Below are positions 5,342 to 37,156 of a DNA stretch of 64,000 nucleotides, in pieces. The notes under the pieces are model-generated. The model worked only from the letters and a program-made list of their open reading frames with translations. It searched no databases and was not told where the DNA came from. Both the position numbers and the translations under genes were made by a program. Within the stretch, counting starts at the first letter, position 1. Each line of letters starts with the position of its first letter. The stretch is from Blasia pusilla (Eukaryota), in the NCBI GenBank assembly GCA_050084515.1, contig CM114271.1, forward strand, positions 49,724,001-49,788,000. Reading direction: 5' to 3'.

Positions 5342-5958
5342 TGTTGTGTATGCGCTGTCACCGAACACACATACAAACACGCACGAACCCATGCTTACTC
5401 ATGGCATCCAAACAACGAGACAAGAAGTACCAAAATATCTCCAATAAAATAAGATCCAATCTCTCCCTACTCCATCTCACACCATAGCTCTCAAAGGTGT
5501 GCACTCTCTCTCATGTCAAACCAAACCCACTCTCGTAATGAGAGGCTTGGGTTACACTCACAAGGCAAGCGACTATAGCTCCGCCGCCTTATGCCAAGAG
5601 GTTCAACAAAGAGAGAATGAGTTCTCAAGCTCTCTCTCCTTGAGGTATACCCCTCCCCTCTCCCAAGCTCTCTTCATGGTAACCTATGCTCCCAAGTCAC
5701 CTCCTTGGCACTTGACCTGATGTAGGAGGTCAAGGGCCACTTACCAAAAATAGAAAGTCGATCACATATTCAAAATGGTACTTACCTAAAATAGCAAGTT
5801 TCTCAATATGACTCTAAATGAGTCGAAACGAAGGGGAAACCTGCTCTCTCAGGTTTCCCGAGGCCTCAGCAGGTCATCCTCGACCTACTGAGCCTATCCT
5901 CCGCTACTCACGAAGGAGCTCTACTAGATCTCACCGATCTATCCTAAGAGACGTGACA
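5342..5958 (-). repeat. 3' LTR of copy A (subfamily 1)
   Basis: TG...CA termini. Colinear with the solo LTR at 57867-58522 and with the reverse complement of 36626-37156. Confidence 0.88.
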
Positions 5959-8900: not shown

Positions 8901-9751
8901 ATGCCAATCATGTTGACCACAGTCAACGGCGATCGATCATCGTGCCTCACTGCGTGTGATCTCCTCCTGTCAACTTAAGGCCCATATCTAGCTCCCAAAT
9001 CTCCATCGTGACTACGGTAGGACTCTCCGACGCGGGTCTAGGTGGTTCCTATGATGCAACCTTGTCTCGAACAACAAAACTCGACTGCTCCTCTACAGCC
9101 AATTACAAAATCGGATCTCCATGTTTAGTACCCATAACCACGCTTGATGTTGTGGCTACCATCTCCTGGCGTATCTGCAAAACATCTGAAAAAGTCCAAG
9201 GATGTCTCTCCTTATCACCCATGGTATGTCGATCTCCTCGGGTGTCGCCCCCAGCCACTCCCTCAACCGTCTTGGTAGGCATGGGGTTCACCAACGCAAT
9301 AGTTGTGATCTTTCGCATCCGAAAAAGACGTTTCTTAGCTACTCCTAAGCTGAAAATCCATGTCAAGCAGTTCAGGTCCATTGCTTGACCTAGGACATGA
9401 CGTCATGATGCCTTTGATAGTGATGGTACTACCATCACTCTTGTGGGGAATCCCATCGCTCGCTCTCGCTCATCAGCGTTGGGCTCCATCAACCTCTGTA
9501 CCTGGTCATCCCAAACCAAGCGAGGTCTGGCCTCCTTGAATGCATAGGAAGCAGGAAAACTCACCAATGTGGGAAAGACTGCCCGTGGCATGCCAATCCT
9601 GTTGACCACAGTCAACGGCGGTCGATCCTCGTGCCTCACTGCTTGTGACTGACGACCTTGATCCAGAATAGAATCCACTAACAAATCGGAGGGGCGCTCC
9701 ACTCTCGCATACGCCCTCCACAAAACCTCATGTGGCACCAATTTGGTCCAC

Positions 9752-9787
9752 CTAAGGTTTAGGGTTTAGGATTCAGGGTTTAGGGTT
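9752..9787 (+). repeat. Interstitial plant telomeric repeat tract (TTTAGGG-like, about 5 degenerate units)
   Basis: ctaaggTTTAGGGTTTAGGaTTcAGGGTTTAGGGtt, located at a deletion junction inside the copy A DNMT domain. Confidence 0.85.
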
Positions 9788-12044
9788 ACCCGCTCCAAGT
9801 CCTGCGTCCCCAACAATGAAATATCCCTCAGTAGGGAACTCTGGTATCCCTAGACAGCGGACGCAGACAATAAGTCGGGAAAACGGAGGGGTAATTGCGC
9901 CATATGGTGAAGAGAAACGTGCCTTGTAACATCATCAATCTCCACATATAGGTACTTCTGCATGCGTACTCCTACCTGCAAAACAACAGCTAACCGAGAG
10001 CTGATCCCTCCAAAGAGATCCAACATTTGAATACCCTCCTCTGGGATGTGCCACACAATGGGTGTGGTATCCAAGGGTGTCATCATAGCACTCTCGGCTA
10101 CCTTGGGTTCCTCTGACCCGTCATGCTCTGGTGCAGACGTCTTGCTCCACGCGGCATGCACATGCTTCATGGCTAAGCGTCGAAGCTCCTTAGTTGAGCC
10201 CAAAAGCGGCACCTCTCCTCCACGGACTGATGCGGCAACAATGACACTCCTCTCCATAGAAATGTCAGGAACGAGAGTATCCTCTGTATGGACATGTTCC
10301 TCAATCAAATCACTAGGCCAAGTGATGGTGTTGCTAAGGTCGCCATCTCTCCTGGCCGGCGCTCGATCACTGCACCTGTGAATCGAACGGATAATGAGCT
10401 AAGGCGCCCATCATCTGAATGCCATCCTTGTCTGTAGGACGATGAATCCTCCCAGTAATCCAGGGAAAACCCCATCGGTATAACACTGCTCCACCAACCA
10501 AGACGTCATAGGACTCTGCATCAATCACTATCGCTTTGGCTCGCACCACGGACTCATCTGTAGGATATCCCGGGCGAATCCTCATCACGACCTCCTAACG
10601 GTTAATATACTGTGTAGTACTTGCTCCACCTAAGGATATCTGTATCCGGAATGGACAACGCTCCACATCGGCCCTCGTCAGGCCCAAACCTTTGAATGCC
10701 GCTTTAATTTCCCCAACATCAGGGCTTGCGCTTCTGAATCCAACAAGACGCGCAACTGACTAAAAGCTCTACCTCCTGGACTCACCAACTGGAAGACCTC
10801 TCCCCGGTTATCCAGCAAAACAAACACCAGGAGAAACCATGGCACGCTCTATCGGGGGTCTAGCGGGCATCTCTGCCATCCTAGCAACCGCACCCTACCA
10901 TGAATCTGACATGGACAGCTCGAGCATCAACTCCAAGGGCAAGTCCATCACCTCCTCTGAATGTGATGCAGGAACTCCAACTCCATGCTCACATAGCGTA
11001 GTGGCCATCCGGAAAACCTCGGTGGGAGTACCTCTCAATGTCATAATATCGGAAGCAGAAAATAAAGGAGCGCGATACACAACAGTGGCCGCCCCCAACA
11101 ACGTGCTCGACACATGCTCTTCCTGAACATCAGCAATAGGAGTCGTCGCACTCGCTTCTTTGATCGCCCTCCGTGCCTCCACACCAACAACATCACCAAC
11201 TCTCTTGGAACTCTGATGAGGACCCATCGATGGGGTCCTCATCGCCTCGGACAACGTGAAAGACTGAGGAAGCGTGGTCTGTTTCCTGGCTTTACCTTGC
11301 TGTGGATCCAACTCTACGGCTTCTTCACGCGTAACAATTGCGGCGGCCTCCATCTGGGCAACCCCGCACATCCAACCAGGATCCTTCATATGTCTAGCCG
11401 CTCCATAAGAGGTCGATGCCACGGATCTGGAATCAGGTAATCTCAATGCCATAGCGGCAATTTCTGCTGTTGTAGCTGTTGTATCTAAGCAGCCATCCCA
11501 ACCTCACGCCCGGCGTCTCCCTCGACGCATCTAGGTGGTGGGACTCTATCTCCTTCACGAGAAACTTCACCATCCCCTCGGGCGAATCCAACTCCTTGTC
11601 CCCCAACGGGACCACTTGGTGCACGACCTCTAGGCCCACCCGAACCAACAAGATGTGGGGGATCTCACATGATGAGCTTGTGCTCATACTTAGGGTTAGT
11701 CTCACTTATGCACGTTTAAAGCAAGTGGGGATTTCACAAAGAGTTTTTATTTGTAGTTCTTGCGACCATAGGTGCAACTCTTGGGACTACTACTTGTGAG
11801 AACAGGAAAAAGCGTTTGAAGAGTGGTTATGTTCATAGCAAAGGTATAGTGCGAAGGCTACAAATTTGTTGGAGTTTGAGGTGACAATGGGTACTACTCT
11901 TTGTATCTTTGCCTCTTGTTAAAAAGCCAACCAAAAACGCGTTTGAAACGTGATTTTAGGGCTCATGATAGGCTCCAGATGACGATCATCAATGACGGCG
12001 TGGGTCATGTCGTCTTCGACAAACAAGATTAAGTCCAGCTCTAA

Positions 12045-12472: not shown

Positions 12473-12875
12473 TCGTATCTCATATACAATTGGTCTTGAC
12501 GTATCAACTGAAGAATTTGTGAATTCTCCATATGTGCAGACCCGCCATAACTGTATTTCCTAGTACTAGTAGTTATCCTCACATAATGTTCAATCTAGAA
12601 GAACAAAGAAGGAGCCTTTGAACACTTGTAGGAAGAGGAGAAGTTGTGTGCACTCGAGATTTGGATCGAAGATTTGGACTCGCTTCATAGTATGGAGCAC
12701 TCCTCACATGCGCACATAGCATCTCCCATACTTCAAGAACAGGAGCTTTTTCTATTCTATTTTCTTGAGTTAAAGTCATGCAATGTTGTAAAACCTTGGG
12801 AACCCAAGCAGAAACGAAGGGGTGACCAACAGTTCTCGATCTCCTGAAATACTCGACAATCGGCGAGACGGCTGC

Positions 12876-16007: not shown

Positions 16008-19000
16008 TTGACGACTACTCCCAGCAAGCTCTGTCCCACATGTGCATATGCAACCTTGGCGCGTTACATAAGCGATCGCTTTTTCTGTTTTACGGATGTA
16101 ACAATCAACCTGTCAAGCAACGATAATTCGTCAAATTGATTCCCGAAATTTAACATTTCAGGGTATGCATAGGCTCCAGCTTAACCATCTCCAATTGCTT
16201 GAGAACCCATGAATCCAGCGCTGCCCAGCTTTCCTTCCGGTTCCCAAAGACTGAAGTGACCAATAACAAATGGGCGTCATGATCACAAGGTACTACCTGG
16301 CCAACAACAGCTGGTTACGGGAAGCTACATTTTCATGTTACTGCCAGGCTCCTGAAAGTTAAGTATAGTAGATTGCGCTCAGCGTCGCACTTTTGGTGAG
16401 TAGCAGCTGATATTCAAATCGTGTGTTGAATACATGATCATCATATACGTGTGCCACTCCACAGTAAGCTATCACTTCACATGCAGTATCCCTTCGAACT
16501 GGGTGTGATGCCCCTCCCACATCGAGCCCTAGACCTGACAGCCCAACCATCTACATTCTGGATCCAAGAAATAGTACCTTCTCCATGGGGAGTTGCCTCA
16601 CCAAGATGACCAAGTGACGTAGAAGAAAGTGATCTAAACAAGGTCCAGAAGCTAGTGAATCAATGATCCTTATCAAGCACATACCTTTCTGGTCTCATTC
16701 TTCTCGAGCACCGACAACTGATCTTCGAGCTCCAATATTTCCGCTCCAAATAAAAAACGACTTCCTCCATGGGACTGCCGACTTCACAGGAGCTCAACGG
16801 TATGTCTATTCCTCGGGAGCTTCGTCTGGATGCTGGTGATAAAGCAGGGAAAAGAGCTTACAACGTCTGAGTTTCGTATTCACGAATCTGAGCAAGACCT
16901 GTGGGGATTCCCCTTCGATTGGAATACAAAATCGTGAGGTCGTTCTAACGATTTTGTGCTCGCACTTAAATTCAGCAGCCAACACTTAAGATCTGGAAAC
17001 ATATCTTGCCTATGGATACGGCCCGCACGCTGCAGTCTACAGAACATCCCGTTCGTGGAAACGAAAACAAGGGTCACGCATAGCTCGGGGTTCAAATGAA
17101 GGGATCCATAAATAGAGCGTATAGCAAGTCAAATCATGAAGGTCAAACTGTGGAAAGAGCTTCAGGCAGAGCGTGTAGGGTACTAGAATGATGAAATCCC
17201 AACACTCTGCAAACGGCAGACATTCGGATTCGTCCACAAGTCAAGCAAATGCGAGGATTGAACTGGAAGTCGACTTCAGATTGCAAGCTCCATCTTGACC
17301 ACAGGATTCGACGCACTGGATGCAGGGTCGCTACTACAACTAGTAGGCTCCAGACTCTAGCCTTTCATTTCCGAGCTTCTGCGAACGCAAACTGGTCCAG
17401 GTCTACGCGTACGAAACTCGTCCGCAACGAACTACAAAAAAGGATTCCCGAAAAAAACTCTCACACCATCCATTTACCGCTCTTCTTCATATACCTGTCC
17501 ATTCCGAAGCGCGTGGCAGCTAAATGTAGACTCCAAGACTACCAGAGGTCTTTCATTCCGAAGGCGCTGCAATCACACATTCGTGGAAGGTGGTCTTTTC
17601 AACTTTTTTTGTGCACGTGTGTCATTCCGACCTTGTCACTTCCAATGAGCTGCATTTTAGAACAATTTCCGGAAAGATCCTCGTGCTCTAGCGACGCACC
17701 GTCAACAACCGCGAAAGACAGAAAACCCAAGAGAAAGTGCTTCGAGTTGCGCTGAATACCCACCATAGTCGCCTCGGGACCTCAAGCCATAGCATGGCCA
17801 CTAGCTTCGAATCCTGGCATCTCGTTGTGTACATACGGATCAACGGAACAAGTCCGTAGAACGACGCGAGTCATGATGCTCCAGAATCCCGCGCACTTCG
17901 CTCCGCCGTTCCAATGACCCACCAACACACCATCCCATCCATCGCCCGGGTACCCCGCATGTTTCCGTTTTTAGCTTGAGAACAAGAAAACCGAAATGCC
18001 TCCAAATTTCAAGTTCAGTTGACTTAGAACGAGTGCTTCGGTGGTCACTAACAAATTGTAGACTACTGATACGCAAGCCCGTTGTGGTACTTGCAAACTG
18101 CAAAGTATGCGCAAAACACTTACACAGCTGGAACATTGCACGTAGAATGAAAGCGGGATCCGAGACTAAACATTGTTGTGTCAAAGCGAGTCACTGATTC
18201 ACAACAGATTCTTCGACGACATTACCTAAGGGACGTTACCAGAACTGTGTCTCCAAACTCCTCTTAACCCTCGAGAGCGTTGCTTTGATCTTCATCCGGA
18301 GTTGAGATCAGGTCGCGGCCGTGGTGGAGTAGCTTCGAGAGGCCGAGGTGGTATGGGTGGTAGAGGTGGACCAGTGGTTGGAGAGCTTACAGTGGCCACC
18401 CCTACCACTACAACAGAGTCAGCTATGGCTGCCAAGATTGAGCAGTTGGACCAGAAGTTGGCTACTAGGGCTGGTATCCAGCATAGATCAAGTTCGGGAG
18501 CAGGGGCTTCCACCTCTTATGGAGGGGATGATCTCTCTTATATGGCGAAAAGACAAAAGTTGAGGTTGAAGATTCAAACGTTACGCCAAGAGGAGCCAAT
18601 TCTGAGAGGAGCCACTCGGCGTCGAGCCACGTGGTGCTCTCTGTGGAGTTGGGCCCCTGAGGGGTGAGGCCGGAGAGGAGCAGGCTTCCCAATTGGCCAG
18701 AGACTTTTTTGGGTCATTCTTGTTGTCTCGAGGTGCTTAGGACTCCATCCATGGTTCTTACGCAAGGAAGACCTATTGAGCCGGCAGTGGGGATTGGGGC
18801 ATCTACATCGCGTGTAGTAGACACGGATGCACTAAGACATCGATCTTGATTACGGATGGCAACCGGTGTTGGGATCCCCATTGTTTTTCGCCCGCCACGG
18901 AGCTAATGGCTTTAGGAGTTGCCTTAGCTCATGTATTTTGGACTAAGTCTTGTACCACGTTGTGTAAACATGGGGTATTATTCTTGCACGTCTTTGAGGT

Positions 19001-20024
19001 GGATGAGGATGTTGCGGTGGAGCGACCCTCTATGTTGTTGGTGTAGCATTGAGTACCAGTGCTACTTGGCGGTGGCGGCGGCGAAGATGGATGCACTACC
19101 GGCCCGGGCAGGTGGTGAGCCATTGATCGTGAGAGGCTTACACCTGGTGTAGGTATGTTGGACAACCGGAGTGGGATATTTCGATTGGTGAGTCCTACAG
19201 GACATGTGTATAGACCATATAGAGTCTTGTTAGACTCGGGTGCCCAACCTTTGATGTTGGGAAAGGCGGCATGTATTGGTTTGGGTATTCGGAGGTCAGA
19301 GCTTGAGCCTTGCCCATTCCAGATTCAAACATCACTTGGAGGCGCCAATGATAGGTCTCAATTCATGACACGAGAGAAGTTATGTACAGTTGAGACCAGA
19401 TCATGCGACTAATAGCTCTTGGTTGGGAGTACCTACAGTGGTCACATCAGGCGAGTCGTATGATGTACTAGTTGGAGGAGCAGTATTGTACCCAATGGGT
19501 TTTCATATGGACTACTGGACTGAGACATCGTCTTATAGACCTGGTTGGCAGTCCGGGGATGGACGTATGAACCAGGTTCCTGTGAGATTTATTTATGGGG
19601 CTCGACCAAGAGGGTCTTCCCCAACGGTGTTAGCATCTGTGGTTGGTTTTAGTGGAGTAGTCACTTGGCCAGGAGACTTTTTGGAGGGTAATCTTTTGCT
19701 ATGAACATCCAGCCAGGTTCACACAGTGAATCTAGGAGGTTGGAATCAAAAGTGTGGCGTGCAAAGCTGGATTCTCCTGTGAATGAGGAGGTAGAGGAGG
19801 TCCCTAGTTTTGCAGCAATGGCATCCTCATCGTTGGATGTGCCACTTTGGAGTTCAGGCGGTGCACTACGGCAAGAGGCTGATCGCCTAGTGCAGGAGGC
19901 TTGGTGTGAGGCTGGTATACCTTACAAGGAAGAGGAGGCCCCATGGCGGACTCCTACTTCTGGTCTAGTTGGGTTATCCCCTTTGGATACTACACCCATT
20001 GTATCGCAGTATCCGCTAGAGGGC

Positions 20025-20975
20025 ATTTGTGTGTTAGATCTCTTTGGTGGGATTAGCACTAGTTTGGCTGCAATGTTGTAGGCCGGTATTCCTCTGCGGA
20101 GATACCTGTATGTGGAGCGAGATGAGACGGCCCAGAGAGTCTCATCCCAACATATCGGTCACTTGATGTGGAGATATCCTGAGTTGTTGCCGCCATCAGC
20201 TATTCGTGGCTACCAGCGTGCTTTGCCGTCACACATTGCATTGTTGGGGGCGCAGGACCTTGAGAGGGTTGCTCCTGTGGATTTGGTGATTGCTGGATGG
20301 CCATGTCAGGGTCATACACGTGCTGGTCGTGGTGAGGGATTACACGACCCTAGGTCTCGATTGTTTTGGGAGATGTTACAGGTGTTACGACATCTTCAGG
20401 TTCATGAGGCACGTACTTCACCTTACATTTTGGAGAATGTTCCATTGTTGGGTGACACTCGGACCCGGATGATGGCGAGTGTTGATGAGGTGGGGTCTTG
20501 GATTGGACCAACGGTGTTGTTGGATGCAGCGCGAGTCGGCTCGCGTGCACATCGTCCACGCTTGTGGTGGACAAACTTGTTGCGTAGGGAGGTTCTACGT
20601 CGAGCATATGATGCAGTGCAGCGGGATCCTTGCCTTACACTGGATAGTATCTTGGATACTGGGCGACTTTCTCAGGTGGTGAGGGTTATTGATCGGTCAC
20701 CCATGGTAGTGGTGAATCGTGTGGGCCAGCCTAGGATGGCACTACCCACATTTGTGAGTTTTCCCTCGTCACATGCCTACAGGGAAGGTGGTCTCGGGCT
20801 TGTATGGGATTCTCATGTGCCAGAGTTGGTGAAGCCTAACGCTGATGAGAGAGAGCGTGCGATGGGATTTGCCACTGGTATGATAGTGGTTGCTTCCATT
20901 TATGAGGCTTCACGACGTCATGTGTTGGGTCAGGCCATGGACCTGAATTTTTTGACTTGGATTTTGAGTCTTGGT
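20025..20975 (+). pseudogene. DNMT3-like C5 cytosine DNA methyltransferase domain within pol of copy B, in frame with RT; one premature TAG at 20079-20081
   Basis: Motif I ICVLDLFGGISTSL; II YLYVERDE; IV DLVIAGWPCQG; V GLHDPRSRLFWEML; VI YILENV; VIII SRAHRPRLWWTNL; IX NADERERAMGF; X RRHVLGQAMD. Canonical (non-permuted) order. ORF 20112-21806 runs directly into RT. Confidence 0.93.
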
Positions 20976-21399
20976 ATGGCCGAGCAGCGTCGACTTCGGA
21001 CTATGTCTGTGGGTCTTCCACCCCTTGTGATGAGCTCGATGGCTACCAGGACGGTAGAGGCATCGGTTAGGGGCAAGGAGAGTAGTATTTTGCATCCTTG
21101 GAGTAAATGGGATGTAATGGATGGGCATGTGGAGTTGGTTGCTCATGCTGGTGGAGGAGTTATTTGCTCATATGATGGTGTAGCTAAGGGTGTACCATCT
21201 TGTGAGGGGTTCGTGAGCAGACCAATGGCGTCGTCCTCTCCCTCTAGTGTGCCAGTGGAGGAGACTTGGGAGCCATTACTTGGGCCCAAGCTTACGGGAG
21301 GTGAGAAACGATGCTTGACACAGTTCCTACGTGCTTATAGGAGTTGTTTTGCCTTTATCATGAAGGAGTTGGATGCTTTGGTTGGACCCGGTATACGGA

Positions 21400-23950
21400 T
21401 TGATTTGGCTAGTGATATGCCAATCTTTCGTCGTCCCTACCGATATAGTGATATGGAGAGGGACCTGATTCAAAGTAGGACGTTGGAACTTTTGGAGGCT
21501 GGATTAGTGGAGTTATCGCATGGAGAGTATGCATCAGCCACTGTCATTCCTGCTAGAAAGGATGTGCATGGCAACTACACGGATAGGCGGATGTGTGGAG
21601 ATTATCGTCCTATCAATTGGCACACCAAGGTTGATAGGTATGTCAGGCCTACACCTAAGGAGATCTTTGATGTGGTGGGACAGGAAAAGATTTTCAGTAC
21701 TTTGGATCTTCGGGCAGGATACCATCAGTTGCCGATTCGAGAGAATGACAAGGCCAAGACAACATTTTGGGGTGTCAACTCTCATGGCAAGGATTGTTTG
21801 TACTAGTGGAAATTCTTACCCTTTGGGTTGAAGAATGCACCTGCCGAGTTTCAGAGAGTGATGGACAGGATCCTAGCAGGGTTGGATTTTGTTCGGTGTT
21901 ACATTGATTATATCTTGGTGTTGAGTAACACGGTGGAGGAGAATCAGATACATTTACATATTTTGTTTGAGCGGTTGAAAGCTCATGGTCTACTTTTGCA
22001 TCGAGGAAAGTGTAAGTTCTTCCATGAGGATGTTGAGTACTTGGGTCATGTGATCTATCCAGGTGGTTTGGGAGTTCAACAAGCAAAGATGGAGGCAATT
22101 GCACTTATTCCTCATCCGGTAGATGTGAGTAGAGTTCGGGCATTCATGGGATTGGCGAACTACTATCGGAGGTATGTGAAGGGATTTTGTGCTATGGCAA
22201 AGCCTTTGAACCAATTGTTGAAATCTCTTATCTTACAGGAGTATGACTTCCAGGTGGTACATAGACCTGGAGTTGCCAACCTTGATGCTGATGGGTTGAG
22301 TAAGAACCCATGTACTAGCCAAGAGGATGCAATTGGGGCTAGATGGCATGGCGAGGTTGATGAGGAGATGGTGCCAGGTTGGCATGCATTCGCCTTTTTA
22401 TGTTGGTTAGGGATGGACTCTAGTATGGAGGACCACACGACATCTTACTCTAGTCAGAGGGTAGATGGCCAGCCTTCAGATCCTAAGGTTGGAGATGGTG
22501 GTACGGATCAACATGATATTCATGATGATGCGTTGGTGTTGGAGTTCCTACGGACCAGTAGGGTGCCAGGCATAGTGAGTGCCAAGGAGCGAGACTATGT
22601 TCTTCAACGTGCTAAGAGGTATCGATTGGAGGGAACACATATTCTCCGTGTGTGGGAGGATCGTAGAGTACGAGTAGTGCCGCATTTGGCTCAAAGAGAG
22701 CGCATTGTGCGACATGCCCATGAGGAGTTGGGACATTTTGGGGTAAAGCGTACGTATAGCTTACTCGTTGGTCAATATTGGTGGCATGGCATGCATACTC
22801 AGGTGCAGCAGTTGGTGTCACGTTGTATGGTTTGTGACTGGGTGAGGGCATCATTCAATACCCCTATACCACAGTTACATCTCTTGCCTATTATGGGGTT
22901 GGGTTACCGTTGGAGTGTGGACTTTGCGGGACCGTTACCGTTGATTGTACGACATCATCGATATGTGTTGGTGATGGTGGAGCACTTCTCCAAGTGGATT
23001 AAGTTGGTGGCATTACCTGACAAGGCAAGTAAGGGAACCGCGTATGCGTTTCTTGATAGAGTGCTTAGTCATTTTGGTGCACCAGCTGAAGTGCTGACCG
23101 ACCAGGGTACAGAGTTGCAGGGTGAGTTTCAAGTCTTGTGTGACAAGGCGTTGATTGAACACGTCTCGAGATCATCCAGAGGCAGATGGTTTGGCTGAGC
23201 CTGTGGTTCAGACGGTGAAGAGGGCATTACGCAAGTATGGCCTACAGAAGGGGCATCTTGGAGACTGGGATATTCAGTTGCCATGGTTAGCCATGGGGTA
23301 TAGGTTTAGTCGCCAAGCATCTTTGGCTTCCTTCTCAGCTTATTTTCTGTTATACGGCCGAGATCCAGACTTGCCAGCAGCAATTCGTTCGGGAATCTAG
23401 TGAGGTGGTGAACCTTGATAACCCAGAGATGTGGATGAGAGTGTGTTCTCAGCGGGCAGAGCTCTTTCGGAGAGTTATGCCAATAGCCTTTGAGAACCTC
23501 GCCATTCCTCAACACAGGGATACGTTGCGGTATGCAACCATTCGGGGTGGAAGTTATCGACCATCAATTCGTAGGTTCCATATGGGGGACTATGTCTATT
23601 TGCAGCACATCGCATCGACAACGTTGGATGTGACGGCAGGCCGCACTATTTTACGAGTGCACGAGGTGTTAGCTTCTGGATTTCTCATGTTGGAGGGTTG
23701 TGATGGAGTTGTTTGGAAGGACCATGTGCGTAATTGTGCGCCATATCATCTTCCAAATGTGGATGGTACTGTTGACCCAAGCTTAGCCATGATATGTGCT
23801 AGCTTAAGGTGCATGTTGTGTGGGTATGCCAGTAACGCAGCCCGTATGTTGGTGTGTGATCGGTGTTCTATGGGTTGGCACATGATGTGTTTGACTCCAC
23901 GTATGGATTTTATTCCTACTGGAAGGTGGGTTTGTCCTCGATGTACTTAG
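21400..23950 (+). pseudogene. RT - partial RNase H - integrase - PHD finger of copy B
   Basis: RRMCGDYRPIN, FSTLDLRAGYHQ, PFGLKNAPAEFQRVMD, YIDY (mutated YxDD), LQEYDFQVVHRPG..N..ADGLS, HAHEELGH...CMVC, WSVDFAGP, VLTDQGTE, HPEADGLAE, then a C4HC3 PHD CMLC...CDRC...HMMC...CPRC before the stop at 23950. Confidence 0.93.
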
Positions 23951-24224
23951 GAGAGGTAGATGACTTGATCTTTGCATGATATGGATTACACATAGGCGAC
24001 TAACAATGGGGCAACCTAGCACCTGGCATTCTGATTCGTGCACCCAAGAAGGTGTATAGCATGTAGTAGATGTATAGGGCTACAGGAGTTAGGGACCTAA
24101 CCTTGATTAGGGGCGAGTTATAGTACACTTGTGTTTGTGGATGCTCTCGTCTATGTTATGTATGTATGTGAGTATGGTATGTCAAGGATGTATGTTGTAT
24201 GACGATGTGGATTCGCATGACAGC

Positions 24225-24685
24225 TGTCATGACCATACGGATTATGTTGTAGAGTATAGTGTGCTAGTAGAGGCCATACCTTATGTAGGGCCGTAGTGTC
24301 TAGGTAGAGATGCAGGGTTGGGGGTTACTCAGTTGAGGATGACTTTTCCAGTAGGGCCCGCTCTTAGGTTGGAGGATATAGTGTGGAATGCACTCAAAGA
24401 ATAGTTAGTTCTTTGAGTTGAGCCTGTTGCGTTGGAAGTTAGCCTTGGTAGTGAGTAGAGCTCTTGGCTATGGTGGTTCCCGCAAGCTTCGACCTGGATT
24501 CTCCCATTGTCGAGTGGGTTTGGCTTGATTATATGTGATTCTATATGTGTTTTATGACAGTAGGTCTTCACGGATTTCAGTTATGGTACGCTTGTGTTTG
24601 TGGATGCTCTCATCTATGTTATGTATGTATGTGAGTATGGTATGTTAGCGATGTATGTTGTATGACGATGTGGATTCGCACAACA
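24225..24685 (+). repeat. 3' LTR of copy B (subfamily 2, 461 bp)
   Basis: Begins TGTCATG and ends CACAACA. Its last 107 bp (24579-24685) are duplicated at 24116-24222. Confidence 0.8.
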
Positions 24686-30454: not shown

Positions 30455-32375
30455 CTAGGCCTAGGCATTATTTAGCTTGTGAGGTCATTTGATTTGATGC
30501 ACCAGAGTCAATCTACCAATCTATTGTCAAGTCTTTCTTGACCATTGCTCCCATATAATGAGTCATGACCAAGAGATGCTCCGTTTATGAATGTTGTTGT
30601 TCTTGGTATTGCTCTCGGTGTTGTTGCTCGACATAGTTTTGTTGTTGTAAGGGTCTTGTTCTCATATCTGCCTTCTTCTTGAAGCAAAACTTTGCATAGT
30701 GACCCTTTATCCCACAGTAATTGCAAGATCCAGGGACCCTCTACTGCTGACCTCGATCCCAACGGTCTCCACCATCATCACCTTGTGATTATGTTTCGTA
30801 CTGGTTCGTAGTTGATTGAGTGACGTTATATTCAGTGCCTCTTCCTCCATATGCTTGATATCCACCACGACCACAGAGGTTTCTTCCACGGGCCCTACCT
30901 CTGTTTGATCCATAACCTACAAATAGCGCACTTTCTTGCAGACTAGACAAGCTACCGCTGCCTACTAGGCGTATCTCTTCACTAATCAACAGAGGAACTA
31001 ACTCTTGAAAAGTTGGATATTTCTCTCTCACAAAGATAGAGGTCTCAAAGGACTTGTAATCATTTGGAAGGCCTTGAAGAGTGAATAAAATCAGATCATC
31101 ATATTCTACTGTCACTCCAATGCTATTCAACTGATCAACAATATGTTTGATACTCAAAATATAATCATTGATGCTCTGCGATCCTTTTCTCACTTCACTC
31201 AATTGTTGTTTCAATTGAAGCTTTCTGACCTTTTTAGATGTCTAGAACAGCTTTTCCAATGCATCCCAGGCCTCCTTCGGACTATCAATATCTTGGATGT
31301 GACTTATCATTGGCGAAATGATCATTATTGAAATGTAGTGGATTACTTGCCTTGCGCGTTTGTTCCAAGCGCGAATATTCAAGTCTGTTGAGTCACCTTC
31401 TAGCTTGGCCTCATCACCTGCGACAAGCTCTCATAGTTCTTGACCCATGAGAAATTATTTCATACGAAACTTCCACACATTATAATTATGCTTATCTAGC
31501 TTTTTGCTTGTGATTGTTGTTGAGGAATACTCCATGATAAACGATTTCACTCACAAAAACGTAATTTCAGACTTTCTACTGCTCCAATTGAAGGATAGAC
31601 CAATCCTACACAGAAATCGACTTGAAATTTGCCAAAATTGATCAACTGTATGAAAGAACTAGTCAAAATTGGCTTGTAGAGAGCAAATTGCACAACTTTT
31701 CTTCACTAATTGCACTTTCCTACACTGAAAATTGCTACTGCATGAGCTCAGAGTGTCAGAATCGAGAAATTTTGGGTGCGTTGGAAAGCTCTCAACTAGT
31801 TCTACAAGACGGCTAGAATTAGCCTTTGGAATTTTTATAGCCAAAGCATACCCAGACGGCTGAATCGACCAGGAAAGCCAAAAAAATGCCTCCAAAGTTT
31901 TATCACCGTTAAAGCTCCACCTGAAATCTGCACCCACTGAGCTATGAATAAAATTTCCTTCTCCCAAATTGAAATTGTGCCTTCTCTTGCCTCTCTTCTC
32001 TCTTCAAACACCAAGAATTTCAAGTGATGTTCTCCTCTCGCTCTGATACCATGTGGAAAACTACTAAACAAGCATAATTGGTGGAAAATGGCTCTCACAC
32101 ACACACACCACCATGGAGGAAAAAATTTGCAATGAGAGAATGAGTGGAGGCTGGTCCTCTTCTCAATTATATAGGATATGTACAGACAATCATAACCCTA
32201 CCCTTAACGATAGTCTCGAGTTAGACTAATTGTGATTAACTAACCCTAGTTAAGATAATCGTGCTTAACTAACTAACCAAGATTAAGCTTCCCTACTTCA
32301 TGTGAGTACCAAATGTAGCAGCTCAGGTGTCTCATGAGCTTGACTGTAACTCAATCTTCAATACGTCCTACAACA
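30455..32375 (-). mobile_element. Ty1/Copia retrotransposon 5' part: LTR 32375-32052, PBS, gag, start of protease; truncated
   Basis: LTR TGTTG...CCACA followed by the tRNA-Met PBS TGGTATCAGAGC (32051-32040). Gag KLDKHNYNVWKFRMK...SINDYILSIKHIVDQLNSIG...LQGLPNDYKSF; zinc knuckle CNYCGIKGHYAKFC (~30730-30690); protease W*IDSGASNQMT (~30520-30480). Confidence 0.9.
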
Positions 32376-35300
32376 GTCAAGTGATGGGCGCCTTAGCTAT
32401 TTACCCGTTCGATTCATAGGTATAGTGATCGAGTGACGACCGGAAGAGATGGCGACCTTAGCAGCATTTAGCAGTGCCATCACTTGGCCTAGTGATTTGA
32501 TTGAGGGATATGTCCATGCAGAGGTTACTCCCGTTCGTGACATTTCTATGGAGAGGAGTTTCATGGTAGCCGCATCAGTTCGTAGAGGAGAGGTGCCTCC
32601 TGGGGGCTTGACTGAGGAGCTTCGACGCTTAGCCACTAAGCATGTGTAGATCGCGTAGAGCGAGACGTTTGCACTAGAGTGTGATGGGGTCAGAGGAACC
32701 CCAGGTAGGCAGGAGTGTTGCTATGACCCCTTTGGACACCGCTCCGATTTTGTGGTGCATCCCAGAGGAGGATATTCGGGTGTTGGATCTCTTTGGAGGG
32801 ATCAGCACTGGGTTAGTTGTTGTTTTGCACGTTGGAGTGCGCGTGCATTAATACTTGTATGTGGAGATTGATGATGTCGCCCGGCGCGCTTCACTTCACC
32901 ATGTGGCGCTGTTACGCCTCCGATTTCCCGACTTGTTGTCTACGTACGCCATTCAAGGTTACAAGAGTTCCCTACCGAGGGACATTTCATTGTTGGGGGC
33001 GTAGGACTTGAAGCGGGTAGGGACCATAGACTTGGTCATTTCTGGTTGGCCGTGTTAGGGCCAATCGAGTGCTGGATGAGGTAGTGGGTTAGCTGATACT
33101 CCGTCGAGGTTGTTTTGGGAGATGATGCAGATCTTGCGATATTTACATGAGCATCAGCCTCGTTCTCGAGCATACATTTTGGAGAATGTGCCAATTTTGG
33201 GCGATTCGAGGTCCCGCGTTGTGACGAGTGCACATCAGGTGCGCGCATGGATCGGCCCGACAATGTTGTTAAATGCGGTTGGTATAGGTTCTAGAGCAGA
33301 CCGCCCGCGTCTTTGGTGGACCAACTTGGTACTACATGAGATGTTGCGGAGGGCTTATGCGACAGTGGAGCGTCCCTCCGATTTTTTGGTGGATTCTATA
33401 TTGGATCCGGGCCGTCGATCACAGGCAGTGAGGCATGATGATCGACCGCCGTTGACTATGGTCAACATGATTCGCATGCCACGAGCAACCTTTCCCACAT
33501 TGGTGAGTTTTCCCGCTTCCTATGCATTCAAGGAGGCTAGACCTCGCTTGGTTTTGGATGACCAGACACAGAGGTTGGTGGAGCCCAACGCCGATGAGTG
33601 AGAGCAAGCGATGGGATTCCCCACATGAGGGACGGCAAGACTATCACTATCGGAGGCATCACGACGTCATGTCTTGGGTCAGGCGATGGACCTGAACAAC
33701 TTGACATGGATTTTCAGCTTAGGAGTAGCTGAGCAATGTCGTTTGAGGATACAAAAAATCATAAAAGTTGCGTTGGTGAGGCCCATGCCTACCGAGACGG
33801 TTGAGGTAGTGGCTGGGGGCGAGACCCGAGGAGATCGGCACACCAAGGGTGATCGAGAGAGACATCCTGGACTTCTTGGGATATTTTGCAGGTACGCAAG
33901 GAGATGATAGTCACAACATTGAGCGTGGTTGCGGGTCCTGCACGTAAAGATGAGAGTTTTATTATCCGAGACGAGGTTGCACCATAGCAACCACCGACAT
34001 CCGCGCTGGAGAGTCCTACCTTAGTCACGATGGAGACTTGGGAGCTAGATATGGACCCTAAGTTGACAAGAGGAGAGCGGCGTTGGATACACCACTTCCT
34101 TAGGAGCTATAGGAGTTGTTTTGAATTTAGTATGCATGATTCAGGTACGCTGAAGGGTCTAGGGATCCGCATTAAGTTATCGAGTGACAAGCCAATCTTT
34201 TGACGACCCTACAGGTACAGTGACCTGAAGAGGGCTCTGATTCAGAGTAGGATCCATGACTTGGTTGGAGCGAGACTAGTGGAGATGTTGCATGGAGAGT
34301 ATGCATCTGCCACTCTCATGCCCGCCAAGAAGGATGTGCATGGAAACTGTACGGATAGGCGGATGTGTGGAGATTACTGACCTATGAATCGGAAAACCAA
34401 GTCCAATAGGTATGCCATGCCCATCCCTGAGGAGATCTTTGATGCGATTGGGCATGCAAAGGTCTTCAATTCATTGGATTTGCGAGCCGGATACCATCAA
34501 CTACGTATCAGATTGGAGGACAGGCAGAAGACGGCATTTTGGGGCATCGATCCTCACGAGAAGGATTGTTTGTACCAGTGGCGGTTCATACCATTCAGGT
34601 TAAAGAAAGCCCTGGATGAGTTTCATAGGGTCATGGATAGGATCTTGGCAGGTGTGGATTTTGCTAGGTGTTATATTGATGACATTGTAGTCTTTAGCGC
34701 CACAGTTGAGGAGCATGAGCGACATCTAGAGGAGGTGTTTTGACGATTGCAGTTACATGGGCTAAAGCTACATCAAGGCAAGTGCAAGTTCTTCTACGAC
34801 CAGATTGAGTACTTGGGTCATACAATATACCTAGGGGGCTTTGGTTTGCAACAGACGAAGATAGAGGCTATTTCACACATTCCACGCCCTACAGATGTGA
34901 GTCGAGTTCGTGCATTCATGGGATTGGAAAACTTCTATCGACGGTACGTCAAGGGTTTCAATTCAATTAAAAAAGCCGCTAACCTTGATGACGAAGATGG
35001 ATCAAGAGTGGCACTGGGGGGATGAGCAAGAGAGAGCATGTCAGAAGCTCAAGGATAGATCGATATCCGTGCCCATATTGAGGAGATCGATCAAGGGCAT
35101 CCTTTCTAGTTGCATACCGATTAGAGCATGTTGGGGCTTGGAGCCGTGCTCACCCAGCATGACGATGATGGTAGAGAGTTTAGGATGCATGGTGTGTGAT
35201 CGAGTCCGAGCATGGTTCAATGCTCTGACTACACAGTGGCATCCACTTCCGATCATGGGTTTAGGTTATAGATGGAGTTTGGATTTTGCAAGACCTTTGC

Positions 35301-37156
35301 CTTTGACGGAGCGCCATAGTCGTTATGTGTTGGTGATGGTCGAGCACTTCTCGAAGTGGATAGAGTTGGTTGCATTTCGTGACAAAGCGAGTGAGGGAGT
35401 ACCGTATGCCTTCCTAGATCGAGTGTTGAGTCATTACGGTGCACCATCTGAGGTGCTTACAGACCAGGGTACAGAGTTCCGCGGGGAGTTTCAGGCCTTG
35501 TGTGATCACACACTGATCGACCACCGCACTACTTTGCGAGATTATCCTAAGGCGGATGGACTAGCGGAGCGGGTTGTGGAGACGGTGAAGAGAGAACTAC
35601 GCAAGTATGGCTTGCAGAGAGGTCACCTAGGAGATTGGGACCTTCAGTTGCCTTGGTTAGTGATGGGATACAGATTCACTAGGCAGGCATCCTTAGCGTC
35701 TTTCTCACCGTACTTGTTGCTTTATGCCGAGAGCCAGATTTACCTGCGGCCAATTGTCGAGATGTTGGTGAGGTGTTGAACCTTGATGACCTTGATGTAT
35801 GGATGCGAGCATGTTCTCAGAGGGCTGAGTTGTTTCGGAGAGTGATGCCCATAGCGTTTGAGAACTTGACGATTGGGCAACATCCGGATACGTTGAGGTA
35901 TGCGACTATTCGGGGAGGTGGTTATCGATCTATTATCCGGAGGTTTCATCAAGGAGACTATATTTACTTGCAGCAGACGGCACCCAAGACGTTGGATGTG
36001 ATTGCAGGGCGCACCATCTTGAGAGTGCGTGAGGTTTTGCTATCCAATGTTCTCTCATTGGAGGGATGCGATAATATGGTTTGGAAGGACCATATGAGTA
36101 ACTGTGCGCCAAGTCATCTTCCAAACATTGACGGTACATATGATCCGAGCAATAGTAATTCCTGCAGGAGTGCGGTGTATGTTGTGTGGTTCCGCCTGTG
36201 GTGCAGCCACTATGCTAGTCTGTGATGGGTGTTCGAGAGGATGGCATATGGCATGTGTGACGCCACCTCTCACTAGGGTTCTTCAGGGACAATGGATGTG
36301 TCCCAGATGTACATAGAGTAGGTAGTTCGATATTCTGACTTGTGTTTGTGACATGGATGACAAGAAGGTGACTAACGATGGGGCCACATGAGCACACGAT
36401 CTTCTTGCTCTTAGCGTCGAGAGATGTATGTCATGGTAGGTAGGGATATATGGCTATCTTGAGTTAGAGGGACCTAACTACCAACTAGGGGGGCGATTGG
36501 AGATATTTTGGTACTTCTTGTCTCGTTGTTTGGATGCCATGAGTTAGCATGGGATCGTGCGTGTTTGTGTGTGTGTTCGGTGACAGCGATGTATGTTGTG
36601 TAGCGATGTGTATGCGCACGACAACTGTTACGTCTTTTAGGATAGATCGGTGAGATCTAATATAGCGCCTTCGTTAGTAGTGGATGACAGGCTCAGTAGG
36701 TCGAGGATGACATGTTGAGGCCCCGAGAAACTTGAGAGAGCAGGTTTCCCCTTCATTTCGGCTCATTTGGAGCCTTATTGAGTAACTTACTATTTTAGGT
36801 AAATACCATTTTGAGCATATGATCAATTTCTATTTTTGGTAAGTGTTCCTTGACCTTCTACATCAGTCAAGAGCCAAGGAGGTGACTTGGGAGCATATGT
36901 TACCATAGAAAGAGCTTGGGAGAGGGAAGGGGTATACCTCAAGGAGAGAGATCTTGAGAGCTCATTCTCTCTTTGTTGAACCTCTTGGCATGAGGCGACA
37001 AAGCTATGGTCTTGCTTGCCTTGTGTGTGTGTAACCCAAGCCTCTCATTTGGAGAGTGAGTTTGGTTTGAAATTTAGAGAGACATGTGAGAGTGCACATA
37101 TGTGAGAACTATGGTGTTGTGAGAGAGATTGGATCTTATTTTATTGGAGATATTTT
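32376..37156 (+). mobile_element. Ty3/Gypsy LTR retrotransposon carrying DNMT and PHD domains, copy C (subfamily 1); 5' part lost at the Copia junction, 3' LTR truncated
   Basis: DNMT RVLDLFGGISTGL (~32775), ISGWPC*G (33040-33060), YILENVP, RADRPRLWWTNL, LGQAMD; RT with YIDD (34384-34743); integrase (ORF 34910-35779); PHD (36176-36316); LTR from 36626. Confidence 0.93.

What the first reader, a model, noticed from the sequence alone, without database searches (positions are those of the whole stretch)
23810..23950. Integrase ends in a PHD finger instead of a chromodomain: histone reader plus DNA methylation writer in one polyprotein
Seen: a C4HC3 PHD (CMLCGYASNAARMLVCDRCSMGWHMMCLTPRMDFIPTGRWVCPRC) terminates pol in all three copies (also 36176-36316 and ~6270-6410). 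Known: PHD fingers read the H3 tail (H3K4 state), chromovirus integrases use a C-terminal chromodomain for targeting, and animal DNMT3 uses a PHD-like ADD domain to read H3K4me0. PHD-bearing Gypsy integrases have some precedent in non-seed plants. Inference: the PHD steers integration and/or the co-encoded DNMT to a defined chromatin state.
Basis: partly seen in the sequence, partly recalled or inferred. Interest (0 to 1): 0.7.

Follow-up and report, generated by a model that had tools for sequence, protein, structure and literature searches.

The report
PHD-tipped integrase in methyltransferase-carrying retrotransposon
Three decayed copies of a liverwort-type Gypsy jumping gene really do end their integrase in a histone-reading PHD finger and also carry a DNA methyltransferase, a conserved design that extends an already described family and remains untested at the bench.

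Summary
A 45-residue C4HC3 PHD finger ends pol, two codons before the stop, in all three copies (B + 23810-23944; C + 36176-36310; A - 6409-6275, with an internal TGA). Pfam PHD E = 1.6e-9; 0 of 100 shuffles give such a motif.

All three copies are defective members of a Ty3/Gypsy lineage. Its order is gag-PR-DNMT3-like-RT-RH-IN-PHD, with split direct repeats (A1-coding-B1-A2-B2), TGT..ACA ends and 4-bp target duplications. De Mendoza 2018 reports this repeat layout for KnitGypsy-Dnmt3 of Klebsormidium. The closest relatives are in Marchantia polymorpha and Calypogeia.

The PHD follows the SH3-like integrase C-terminal domain, where chromoviruses carry a chromodomain. It is under purifying selection (dN/dS 0.04-0.12 among intact relatives). 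It co-occurs with the DNMT in 19 of 23 loci that could be assessed. Its nearest solved structures are readers of the unmodified H3 tail (ATXR5, BAZ2A/B, KDM5 PHD1, BHC80, UHRF1).

Sense transcripts of close paralogs cover the PHD region in three RNA-seq runs.

Tethering of integration to H3K4-unmethylated chromatin is the best reading, but it is inferred. Steering of the DNMT by the PHD is not supported for this domain order. I rate it a new member of a known kind, of moderate interest.

The parts
23810..23944 (+). Copy B: PHD finger (C4HC3, 45 aa), intact. Followed by a Thr codon and a TAG stop at 23948-23950.
23390..23809 (+). Copy B: integrase C-terminal region (long helix, SH3-like barrel, about 20-aa linker) leading into the PHD.
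   Evidence: AF2 model (helix 12-52, strands 68-118). Alignment A1.
22224..23198 (+). Copy B: integrase H2C2 zinc domain (about 22689-22835) and rve core (about 22905-23162). A frameshift lies between 23158 and 23291.
21264..22223 (+). Copy B: reverse transcriptase, with an in-frame stop at 21804-21806. The RNase H segment is deleted at the junction 22223/22224.
20037..20951 (+). Copy B: DNMT3-like C5 methyltransferase domain. Motif I 20037-20060, IV 20292-20312, VI 20427-20444, VIII 20541-20576, IX 20847-20870. In-frame stop at 20079-20081.
18272..19692 (+). Copy B: gag C-terminal part and protease region. It is recognised only through Marchantia relatives and is interrupted by frame changes.
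24109..24685 (+). Copy B 3' repeats: purine-rich tract 24109-24117, B1 24118-24222, 2-nt spacer, A2 24225-24579, B2 24581-24685. No A1 copy is found upstream.
36176..36310 (+). Copy C: PHD finger. Stop at 36314-36316.
32374..37156 (+). Copy C as a whole: protease end, DNMT (32723-33844), RT (34024-35181), integrase core (35186-35728), CTD, PHD, B1 36495-36623, A2 36626-37142, then the first 14 nt of B2. It lacks RNase H C-terminus to the integrase zinc domain.
6275..6409 (-). Copy A: PHD finger with an internal TGA at 6293-6295.
5349..11416 (-). Copy A as a whole: gag/PR (11416-10400), DNMT (10338-8492, with a 486-bp tandem duplication), RT (8547-7408), integrase core, CTD, PHD, B1 6089-5961, A2 5958-5449, truncated B2 5445-5349. 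It has the same internal deletion as copy C.
57867..58522 (-). Solo A-B unit of the A/C family, flanked by TGTG on both sides. This is the product expected from A1 x A2 recombination.

Best explanation
The finger is the genuine C-terminal domain of the integrase of a liverwort Ty3/Gypsy retrotransposon. The element belongs to the DNMT3-carrying, split-direct-repeat lineage first described in Klebsormidium. The PHD sits directly after the SH3-like integrase C-terminal domain, which is the position of the chromodomain in chromoviruses. It most likely tethers the integrase-cDNA complex to nucleosomes by binding the free N-terminus of histone H3 when Lys4 is unmethylated. That would bias new insertions away from H3K4-methylated promoters. 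The co-encoded DNMT3-like domain is a separate module of the polyprotein that acts on DNA, and it is not shown to be guided by the PHD.

Shown: the domain, its position, its conservation and selection, its structural class, its co-occurrence with the DNMT, and transcription of the family. Inferred: histone binding, preference for unmethylated K4, and an effect on target choice.
For: (1) The domain is real: Pfam E = 1.6e-9, 3 regex matches against 0 in 100 shuffles, and AF2 pLDDT 84-90 over the finger.
(2) Position: the order is helix, SH3-like barrel, linker, PHD, stop. No chromodomain is found.
(3) Conservation: 15 of 18 hits to the CTD-PHD query carry PF00628. 50 of 80 metagenome loci keep the C4HC3 pattern, always 45 residues long; 4 of these have an internal stop. 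All 8 zinc ligands and the Pro-x-Gly-x-Trp loop are invariant or at least 90% conserved in alignments A1 (31 sequences) and A2 (24 sequences). HMMER finds 195 representatives at E <= 1e-30.
(4) Selection: PHD dN/dS is 0.04-0.12 among elements with open ORFs.
(5) Class: none of the 60 best of 92 PDB sequence matches is a named K4me3 reader. They are CHD4, KMT2C/D, ATXR5, DPF2/3, KDM5A/B, PHF21A, BAZ2A/B, UHRF1 and the like. The same set comes up for two other subfamilies. The best single-domain Foldseek match is ATXR5 PHD bound to H3 (5VAB: TM 0.84, rmsd 0.9 A, 39% identity). BAZ2A and UHRF1 entries titled as complexes with unmodified H3 follow.
(6) Contact residues: I mapped the ATXR5 contacts (PMC5499861, section 14) through the ungapped alignment. 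The A1-anchoring Pro60 and Gly62 and the R2-binding Asp41 are conserved, and loop 1 has the same length.
(7) Integrase-type insertion: TGT..ACA termini and 4-bp duplications.
(8) Sense transcripts cover the PHD bin at depth 38-43 in 3 RNA-seq runs.
Against: No binding or insertion-site data exist here. The second R2-binding acid of ATXR5 (Asp44) is Ser in this finger. K4 selectivity in ATXR5 comes from main-chain atoms of a loop whose side chains differ here, so specificity cannot be read from sequence. In ATXR5 itself the PHD adds little to nucleosome affinity and instead tunes cofactor binding (PMC5499861), so a PHD of this class need not be a tether. Copies A and B lie within about 1.1-1.5 kb of an expressed LRR receptor kinase gene, which is not obviously silent chromatin. 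In distant relatives the PHD is followed by a tail of 36-507 residues, so a terminal position is not essential. The three window copies are themselves dead. Most RNA reads are only 95-99% alike and come from paralogs.
Confidence: 0.5

Rival explanations
1. Reader-writer coupling. The PHD works with the element's own DNMT3-like domain as a stand-in for the ADD domain of animal DNMT3. It would do so by recruiting the DNMT to H3K4-unmethylated nucleosomes or by regulating it allosterically, so that the new copy or its surroundings are methylated.
For: DNMT and PHD co-occur in 19 of 23 assessable loci and in 8 single ORFs. At least one DNMT motif is present in 19 of 24 long polyproteins that were retrieved with a PHD-only query. 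In those distant relatives the order is RT-RH-DNMT-IN-PHD, so DNMT, integrase and PHD are contiguous. No ADD or PWWP is found beside the DNMT. The ATXR5 PHD regulates cofactor binding of its own methyltransferase.
Against: In the window's lineage the DNMT lies upstream of RT, about 1000 residues from the PHD. Intact relatives have an in-frame stop between the two (L045, L047, L072). Protease processing would normally separate them. PHD-bearing relatives without a detectable DNMT exist: 5 of 24 show none of the three DNMT motifs, and P0052, P0055 and P0062 lack PF00145.
Confidence: 0.2
2. The PHD binds a non-histone partner. This could be a host protein with an H3-like N-terminus, or another part of the polyprotein. 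It would then serve nuclear import, particle assembly or integrase regulation rather than target choice.
For: UHRF1 PHD entries among the matches include complexes with PAF15 and Stella peptides. The ATXR5 PHD binds its own SET domain.
Against: The A1-anchoring loop and one R2-binding Asp are conserved across the family, which fits H3-type N-terminal peptides. The domain occupies the position of the chromodomain, a proven targeting module. That proof is recalled from Gao et al. 2008, as cited in the passages read.
Confidence: 0.15
3. The PHD reads methylated H3K4 and directs insertion to active promoters or gene starts.
For: Copies A and B flank an expressed gene closely. A Trp precedes the zinc-binding His.
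Against: None of the 60 best PDB sequence matches in three searches is a protein that I recall as a K4me3 cage reader, such as ING, BPTF or TAF3. The residue before the first Cys is Arg, not aromatic; that this is a cage position is recalled, not tested. ATXR5 has Tyr at the position of the Trp.
Confidence: 0.07
4. Artefact: the finger is a captured or adjacent host exon, or a chance Cys-rich frame, and is not part of the element.
For: Fragments of the family are annotated in Marchantia polymorpha as stand-alone 'PHD-type domain-containing' genes.
Against: The finger stands at the same place in three copies of two subfamilies that are about 74% identical. It is continuous with the integrase CTD in open 1039-1083-aa ORFs. 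It is under purifying selection.
Confidence: 0.01

Closest known systems
KnitGypsy-Dnmt3 of Klebsormidium nitens (de Mendoza et al. 2018, PMC5890265; cited as 'streptophytes (Gypsy-DNMT3)' in preprint 10.64898/2026.05.21.726589)
   Same: A Gypsy-type pol carries an unrearranged DNMT3-like domain with the catalytic motifs kept. The repeat layout is the DIRS-like A-coding-B-A-B that the legend of their Fig. 4c describes. I see this layout in L022 and L074, and the B1-A2-B2 part of it in window copy B.
   Different: The host is a liverwort-like land plant, not a charophyte alga. The paper infers an acquisition 'in the K. nitens lineage'. Its main text and legends never mention a PHD (0 occurrences). 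I could not see Fig. 4c or the supplements, so the PHD may be drawn there. No K. nitens sequence was compared here.
Chromoviruses (Ty3/Gypsy with a chromodomain at the integrase C-terminus; Gao et al. 2008, as cited in passages)
   Same: A small histone-tail reader is fused directly after the SH3-like integrase C-terminal domain, which is the presumed tether for target choice.
   Different: No chromodomain is detected. Placement on an RT tree relative to chromovirus clades was not tested.
ATXR5/6 PHD finger (5VAB; Bergamin et al. 2017, PMC5499861)
   Same: It is the best single-domain match by sequence (48.8 bits, ungapped) and by fold (TM 0.84, rmsd 0.9 A). Loop lengths are equal, and the Pro-x-Gly A1 anchor and one R2-binding Asp are conserved. 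The gamma subfamily shares the stretch GYHLFCL with it.
   Different: ATXR5 is a host H3K27 methyltransferase. Its second R2-binding Asp is Ser here. Binding by the element's finger is untested.
Chlamydomonas Gypsy-7a_cRei and other PHD-bearing transposons (Craig et al. 2022 preprint 10.1101/2022.06.16.496473; Perez-Alegre 2005 and Kapitonov & Jurka 2003, as cited there and in PMC6673714)
   Same: A green-lineage Gypsy Gag-Pol carries a PHD finger. [quoted passage not shown]
   Different: No DNMT is reported there. The legend lists the PHD between RH and INT, so its position may differ. The host is a chlorophyte.
Catalogue of chromatin domains fused to transposons (Grau-Bove et al. 2022 preprint 10.1101/2021.11.30.470311)
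   Same: It reports PHD and Chromo as the chromatin domains most often found with retrotransposon RT and integrase domains (passages read).
   Different: It is a survey at the level of gene models. The passages I read do not describe this lineage or a PHD-DNMT pairing.

Membership tests
PHD finger (Pfam PF00628) | Cys4-His-Cys3 ligand pattern with canonical spacing | tested here: met
   C-x2-C-x11-C-x2-C-x4-H-x2-C-x14-C-x2-C in all three copies. 0 of 100 shuffles give a match.
PHD finger (Pfam PF00628) | Profile score above the curated cut-off | tested here: met
   38.1 bits against 24, E = 1.6e-9, full profile 1-47.
PHD finger (Pfam PF00628) | Cross-braced fold | tested here: met
   AF2 pLDDT 84-90 over the finger. 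Foldseek match to 5VAB: TM 0.84, rmsd 0.9 A over 49 columns. This rests on a prediction only.
PHD finger (Pfam PF00628) | Binding of two zinc ions | not testable with these tools
   Needs metal analysis of purified protein.
Unmodified-H3-tail (H3K4me0) reader subclass of PHD fingers | Nearest solved relatives belong to the subclass | tested here: met
   Searches (sequence; fold): ATXR5, BAZ2A/B, KDM5A/B PHD1, PHF21A, UHRF1, DPF3, CHD4. Several entry titles name unmodified H3.
Unmodified-H3-tail (H3K4me0) reader subclass of PHD fingers | Residues that hold H3 Ala1 and Arg2 (ATXR5 Pro60, Gly62; Asp41, Asp44) | tested here: inconclusive
   Pro, Gly and the first Asp are conserved. The second Asp is Ser.
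Unmodified-H3-tail (H3K4me0) reader subclass of PHD fingers | Preference for K4me0 over K4me3 in binding assays | not testable with these tools
   Needs a peptide array or ITC. A complex prediction was not possible because no H3 sequence could be supplied.
Chromovirus | Chromodomain at the integrase C-terminus | tested here: not met
   Only PHD families hit the C-terminal frame.
Chromovirus | Placement inside the chromovirus branch of an RT/IN tree | not tested
   No named reference sequences were at hand.
Ty3/Gypsy LTR retrotransposon | Order PR-RT-RH-IN with a DDE (rve) integrase and H2C2 zinc domain | tested here: met
   The DNMT is inserted between PR and RT.
Ty3/Gypsy LTR retrotransposon | Two identical long terminal repeats | tested here: not met
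   No LTR pair is found around any copy. Relatives show split direct repeats A1-coding-B1-A2-B2 instead.
Ty3/Gypsy LTR retrotransposon | TG..CA termini and short target-site duplication | tested here: met
   Termini read TGTCATG...CATGACA. 4-bp duplications: AAGG in L022 and TGTG around the solo unit. L074 matches at only 3 of 4 positions.
Gypsy-DNMT3 (KnitGypsy-Dnmt3 type) | Unrearranged DNMT3-like catalytic domain inside pol | tested here: met
   Motifs I, IV, VI, VIII and IX are in order. 27 of 37 PDB matches are DNMT3A/B/C, best E = 1.6e-8; bacterial M.HaeIII/HhaI score E >= 1e-3.
Gypsy-DNMT3 (KnitGypsy-Dnmt3 type) | DIRS-like repeat layout with Gypsy domains | tested here: met
   Seen in full in L022 and L074, and in part in L040. 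B1-A2-B2 is present in window copies A, B and C; A1 is not found in the window.
Gypsy-DNMT3 (KnitGypsy-Dnmt3 type) | Sequence relationship to the Klebsormidium elements | not tested
   No named K. nitens protein appeared, and no K. nitens sequence was available.
Gypsy-DNMT3 (KnitGypsy-Dnmt3 type) | De novo CG methylation activity | not testable with these tools
   It was shown for the alga's enzyme in yeast by de Mendoza 2018 (abstract).

The most novel reading that the evidence does not exclude
A lineage of integrase-bearing retrotransposons spread across streptophytes, and perhaps wider in the green lineage, carries its own small epigenetic kit. The kit is a DNMT3-type writer plus an H3K4me0-type PHD reader, which together rebuild in trans the ADD-DNMT3 logic of animals. 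In relatives with the order DNMT-IN-PHD they could even act as one protein. On this reading the element chooses H3K4-unmethylated chromatin and methylates itself on arrival, as a self-silencing or camouflage strategy. Such a strategy would let it persist next to genes in compact bryophyte genomes.
Probability: 0.2. Interest if true: 0.72.

Novelty: new member of a known kind. Interest (0 to 1): 0.42.

Why it matters
If the PHD does tether integration, this is a second, independent solution to the problem that chromoviruses solve with a chromodomain: a reader of a different histone state on the same integrase scaffold. It also travels with a DNA methyltransferase. The family is abundant and transcribed in liverworts, including the model Marchantia polymorpha, where I recall that chromatin maps and transformation exist. 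So the question of what a transposon gains by carrying its own chromatin reader and DNA methylation writer becomes testable in a land plant. Two practical points follow. First, fragments of the family are annotated as host 'PHD-type domain-containing' genes and should be masked. Second, the DNMT3-Gypsy lineage is not confined to Klebsormidium, which bears on the published inference of an acquisition within that lineage.

Tried and rejected
Whole genome: none is held for this window.

Classical LTR search: blastn with word size 7 between the up- and downstream flanks of each copy found nothing. This was later explained by the split-repeat layout. A search for the A-start motif upstream of copy B also found nothing.

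Literature:
- One search failed on a term with a slash. I replaced it with the single term 'chlamyvir'.
- My recollection that Chlamyvir elements carry a PHD was wrong. Neumann 2019 (PMC6317226) and Novikova 2012 (PMC3350952) have 0 mentions of PHD in their main texts.
- Searches found no text describing a PHD at the integrase end of a DNMT-bearing Gypsy.

Protein Atlas with P0041 gave only unnamed RT/RNase H clusters without taxa.

Host identity through the receptor kinase failed. The search was crowded by angiosperm LRR kinases, and the best identities were 39% (Calypogeia) and 38% (Marchantia paleacea).

Sequencing-run index: no RNA holder is listed. Expression evidence comes only from the laid raw reads.

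dN/dS of the 120 codons upstream of the PHD was computed without gaps. At 59-83% amino-acid identity it is unreliable, so I do not use it as a comparator. dN/dS values that involve the decayed window copies (0.09-0.67) mix neutral decay with selection.

Whole-model Foldseek matches to Tudor-PHD proteins (PHF1, MTF2, UHRF1) have rmsd 11-15 A. I read them as two separate domain matches, not as a shared architecture.

Earlier findings of this scan: none for this genome or this sequence.
Full report
OBSERVATION. It is followed by a Thr codon and a TAG stop at 23948-23950. A C4HC3 regex run over all six frames of the window finds three matches and no others: + 23810-23944, + 36176-36310 and - 6275-6409. 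None of 100 block-wise shuffles of the window gives a match. All three copies end Cys-Pro-(Arg/Lys)-Cys-Thr-stop. The minus-strand copy has a TGA inside the finger at 6293-6295. Pfam PHD (PF00628) scores 38.1 bits (cut-off 24, E = 1.6e-9) over the full profile. No chromodomain family is hit.

WHAT THE THREE COPIES ARE. Self-comparison shows three related retroelement copies. Copy A (minus strand, about 5349-11416) and copy C (plus strand, 32374-37156) are about 90% identical to each other. Copy B (plus strand, about 18272-24685) is about 74% identical to both.

Pfam, together with tblastn using relatives, gives the order gag/protease, C5 DNA methyltransferase, RT, (RNase H), integrase H2C2 plus rve core, integrase C-terminal domain, PHD.

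None of the copies is intact:
- Copy B has in-frame stops at 20079 and 21804 and a frameshift between 23158 and 23291. It also has a clean deletion of the RNase H segment at 22223/22224.
- Copies A and C share a deletion that runs from the RNase H C-terminus to the integrase zinc domain.
- Copy A also carries a 486-bp tandem duplication.

The window further holds an LRR receptor-kinase ORF (12876-16112, minus strand) between A and B, a Helitron-type PIF1 helicase remnant and a Copia gag fragment.

THE FAMILY. A search with the integrase C-terminal frame found 18 proteins at E <= 0.001 among 444 candidates, and 15 of the 18 carry PF00628. The best hits are Marchantia polymorpha (76-82% identity) and Calypogeia fissa. 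Open 1033-1083-aa RT-RH-IN-PHD proteins are among them, including one from a transcriptome.

A search with the DNMT-RT frame found 51 proteins. Among them are many M. polymorpha models, one from Sphagnum fallax, and 8 single ORFs that hold both PF00145 and PF00628. Integrase-PHD proteins of the chlorophytes Chromochloris and Haematococcus also appeared.

Two architectures exist:
- The window's type is gag-PR-DNMT followed by RT-RH-IN-PHD (for example P0036 plus P0012).
- A more distant type is RT-RH-DNMT-IN-PHD followed by a tail.

HMMER against 1.84 billion representatives, queried with the 186-residue CTD-PHD segment alone, gives 4038 proteins at E <= 0.001, 791 at E <= 1e-10 and 195 at E <= 1e-30. 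I examined 24 of the 28 proteins of at least 1400 residues among the best 150; the limit was set by a residue cap. All 24 have PHD, rve and H2C2. PF00145 is detected in 9. DNMT motifs IV and VIII together are found in 12, and at least one of motifs IV, VIII and IX in 19. All 24 have 36-507 residues after the PHD.

A scan of JGI metagenome contigs found 414 stretches that encode relatives, out of 575 pattern matches. 80 loci were kept. Most are decayed. L045 and L047 have open gag-PR-DNMT and RT-RH-IN-PHD frames separated by a single in-frame stop. Among the 23 loci with at least 4.5 kb upstream of the CTD match, 19 have a DNMT match upstream on the same strand.

REPEATS AND ENDS. No classical LTR pair flanks any copy. 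Relatives with enough flank show A1-coding-B1-A2-B2 (L022 and L074 in full, L040 in part). Window copy B has B1 at 24118-24222, A2 at 24225-24579 and B2 at 24581-24685, preceded by a purine-rich tract. It has no A1. The unit starts TGTCATG and ends CATGACA, and the B1|A2 junction reads CATGACA-GC-TGTCATGAC. Four-base target duplications flank L022 (AAGG) and a solo A-B unit at 57867-58522 (TGTG). L074 matches at only 3 of 4 positions.

The legend of Fig. 4c in de Mendoza et al. 2018 states that KnitGypsy-Dnmt3 has the repeat structure of a DIRS element with Gypsy domains. The layout seen here fits that description. On this basis I file the element with that family. I did not compare sequence with K. 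nitens.

THE PHD ITSELF. An AlphaFold2 model of window residues 23390-23947, built on 31 aligned sequences, has a mean pLDDT of 78.7. It shows a long helix, an SH3-like barrel (strands 68-118), a linker and the finger at pLDDT 84-90.

In alignment A1 the eight ligands, the Asp after the third Cys, Gly-Trp before the His, and the Pro-x-Gly-x-Trp loop are invariant or at least 90% conserved. In A2 all eight ligands are invariant.

50 of 80 loci keep the pattern, always 45 residues long and 2-14 residues from the stop. 4 of the 50 have an internal stop.

Among elements with open frames the PHD has these values:
- L045/L047: dN/dS 0.04 (dS 1.58, near saturation).
- L045/L046: 0.05.
- L045/L048: 0.08.
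- L047/L046: 0.12.

Against PDB sequences, 92 chains match at E <= 0.01. The 60 listed are CHD4/5, KMT2C/D, ATXR5, DPF2/3, PHF12, KDM5A/B/D, PHF21A, WSTF, BAZ2A/B, UHRF1/2, KAT6A/B, PHF10, ORC1b, MTF2 and RCO1. Fingers of two other subfamilies give the same set.

By fold, the best single-domain match is ATXR5 PHD bound to H3 (5VAB: TM 0.84, rmsd 0.9 A). BAZ2A/B, DPF3b, BHC80 and UHRF1 follow, and several of those entries are titled as complexes with unmodified H3.

Bergamin et al. 2017 (section 14 read) give the ATXR5 contacts: Ala1 amine to the carbonyls of Pro60 and Gly62; Arg2 to Asp41 and Asp44; Lys4 to main-chain carbonyls in a narrow pocket. Through the ungapped alignment, Pro60, Gly62 and Asp41 are conserved here, Asp44 is Ser, and loop 1 has the same length. 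From memory, K4me3 readers use an aromatic cage. I did not test cage positions directly.

THE DNMT. Motifs I, IV (Pro-Cys-Gln), VI (Glu-Asn-Val), VIII and IX are present in order in copy B. 27 of 37 PDB matches are DNMT3A/B/C, with best E = 1.6e-8. Bacterial enzymes score E >= 1e-3. No ADD or PWWP is detected.

EXPRESSION. I laid three stranded RNA-seq runs on 5000-24900. These runs carry the same species label as the best DNA holder. They show reads whose orientation matches the sense strand of each feature:
- The kinase gene, at depth 2-9, serves as a control.
- Copy B has depth 7-60 over 18944-24255, and 38-43 in the bin that holds the PHD.
- Copy A has depth 5-12 over its 3' part.

Most reads are 95-99% alike. 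62-100 reads per run diverge on each side of position 22225. They therefore come from paralogs that keep the RNase H piece missing in copy B. The family is transcribed. This does not show that the window's copies are transcribed.

HOW IT MOST LIKELY WORKS. The finger stands where chromoviruses have their chromodomain. It is selected, and it belongs to the class that holds the free H3 N-terminus with unmethylated Lys4. The elements insert in the manner of an integrase. The best-supported mechanism is therefore a tether of the integration complex to H3K4-unmethylated nucleosomes (confidence about 0.5).

Coupling of the PHD to the DNMT is possible, and more so in relatives where DNMT, IN and PHD are contiguous. 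It is not supported for the window's domain order. The points against the tether reading are the Ser at the second Arg2 site, the accessory role of the ATXR5 PHD on nucleosomes, the closeness of two copies to an expressed gene, and the lack of any binding or site data.

WHAT IS KNOWN.
- DNMT3 in a Gypsy pol is published for Klebsormidium (PMC5890265; sections and passages read). That text has 0 mentions of PHD. Its figures and supplements were not visible to me and may show one.
- PHD fingers in transposons are known: CR1, REM1 and Chlamydomonas Gypsy-7a_cRei (passages).
- A survey lists PHD and Chromo as the chromatin domains most often fused to transposon genes.
- A 2026 preprint describes retrotransposons with two methyltransferases plus a chromodomain.
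- Plant LTR classification papers do not mention PHD, Marchantia or a methyltransferase.
- My searches found no text on an integrase-terminal PHD in DNMT-bearing Gypsy elements, or on this family in liverworts.
This is the same position as in the distant relatives seen here. I did not test that note.

VERDICT. The element is a new (liverwort) member of the known Gypsy-DNMT3 kind. Its conserved integrase-terminal PHD of the unmodified-H3 class has not, to my searches, been discussed in print. Interest is moderate.

Noticed in passing
window 24109-24685; L022 1676-2017 and 10238-10805; L074 1085-1391 and 10625-11285: The family has split direct repeats (A1-coding-B1-A2-B2) instead of two LTRs. 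The unit starts TGTCATG and ends CATGACA. The B1|A2 junction looks like an LTR-LTR circle junction with 2 nt between, and a purine-rich tract precedes B1. How an integrase-bearing element replicates with this layout is unexplained.
   Followed up: partly
window 57867-58522 (minus): A solo A-B unit of the A/C family is flanked by TGTG on both sides. This is the product expected from recombination between A1 and A2, and so the counterpart of a solo LTR.
   Followed up: partly
L045 5083-5085; L047 4661-4663; L072 1023-1025: In relatives with open frames, a single in-frame stop separates gag-PR-DNMT from RT-RH-IN-PHD. This suggests expression of pol by stop-codon read-through. In window copy B the DNMT-RT boundary is continuous.
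   Followed up: no
window 22223/22224: Copy B has a clean in-frame loss of the RNase H segment. RNA reads (62-100 per run on each side) diverge exactly there, showing transcribed paralogs that keep the segment.
   Followed up: partly
window 7403-7408 and 35181-35186: Copies A and C share the same deletion, from the RNase H C-terminus to the integrase zinc domain. They are either members of a non-autonomous subfamily moved in trans or an old inverted duplication.
   Followed up: no
proteins P0135-P0253, C-terminal tails: In the distant RT-RH-DNMT-IN-PHD relatives the PHD is followed by 36-507 residues with a conserved but unnamed block. Pfam finds nothing there. It could be a further reader domain.
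   Followed up: no
proteins P0114-P0119 and P0003, P0006: Several Marchantia polymorpha gene models named 'PHD-type domain-containing protein' or 'hypothetical protein' are fragments of this retrotransposon family.
   Followed up: partly
window 12876-16112 (minus): An uninterrupted 1078-aa LRR receptor-kinase frame lies between copies A and B and is transcribed. The RNA reads carry fixed differences from the window, so they come from another accession or a close relative.
   Followed up: partly
window 41390-42514 (+) and 30789-31241 (-): A Helitron-type PIF1 helicase remnant and a Copia-type gag fragment are present, so the window is rich in transposons.
   Followed up: no
window 8474-8959 / 9163-9648, and 2563-2940: There is a 486-bp tandem duplication (88% identical) inside the DNMT region of copy A. 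Separately, a 189-bp tandem repeat (two copies, 92% identical) lies at 2563-2940.
   Followed up: no
window 24254-24525: A few RNA reads (1-5 per run) join 24525 back to 24254 inside the A2 block. This is unexplained. It may reflect a tandem variant of A in a paralog.
   Followed up: no
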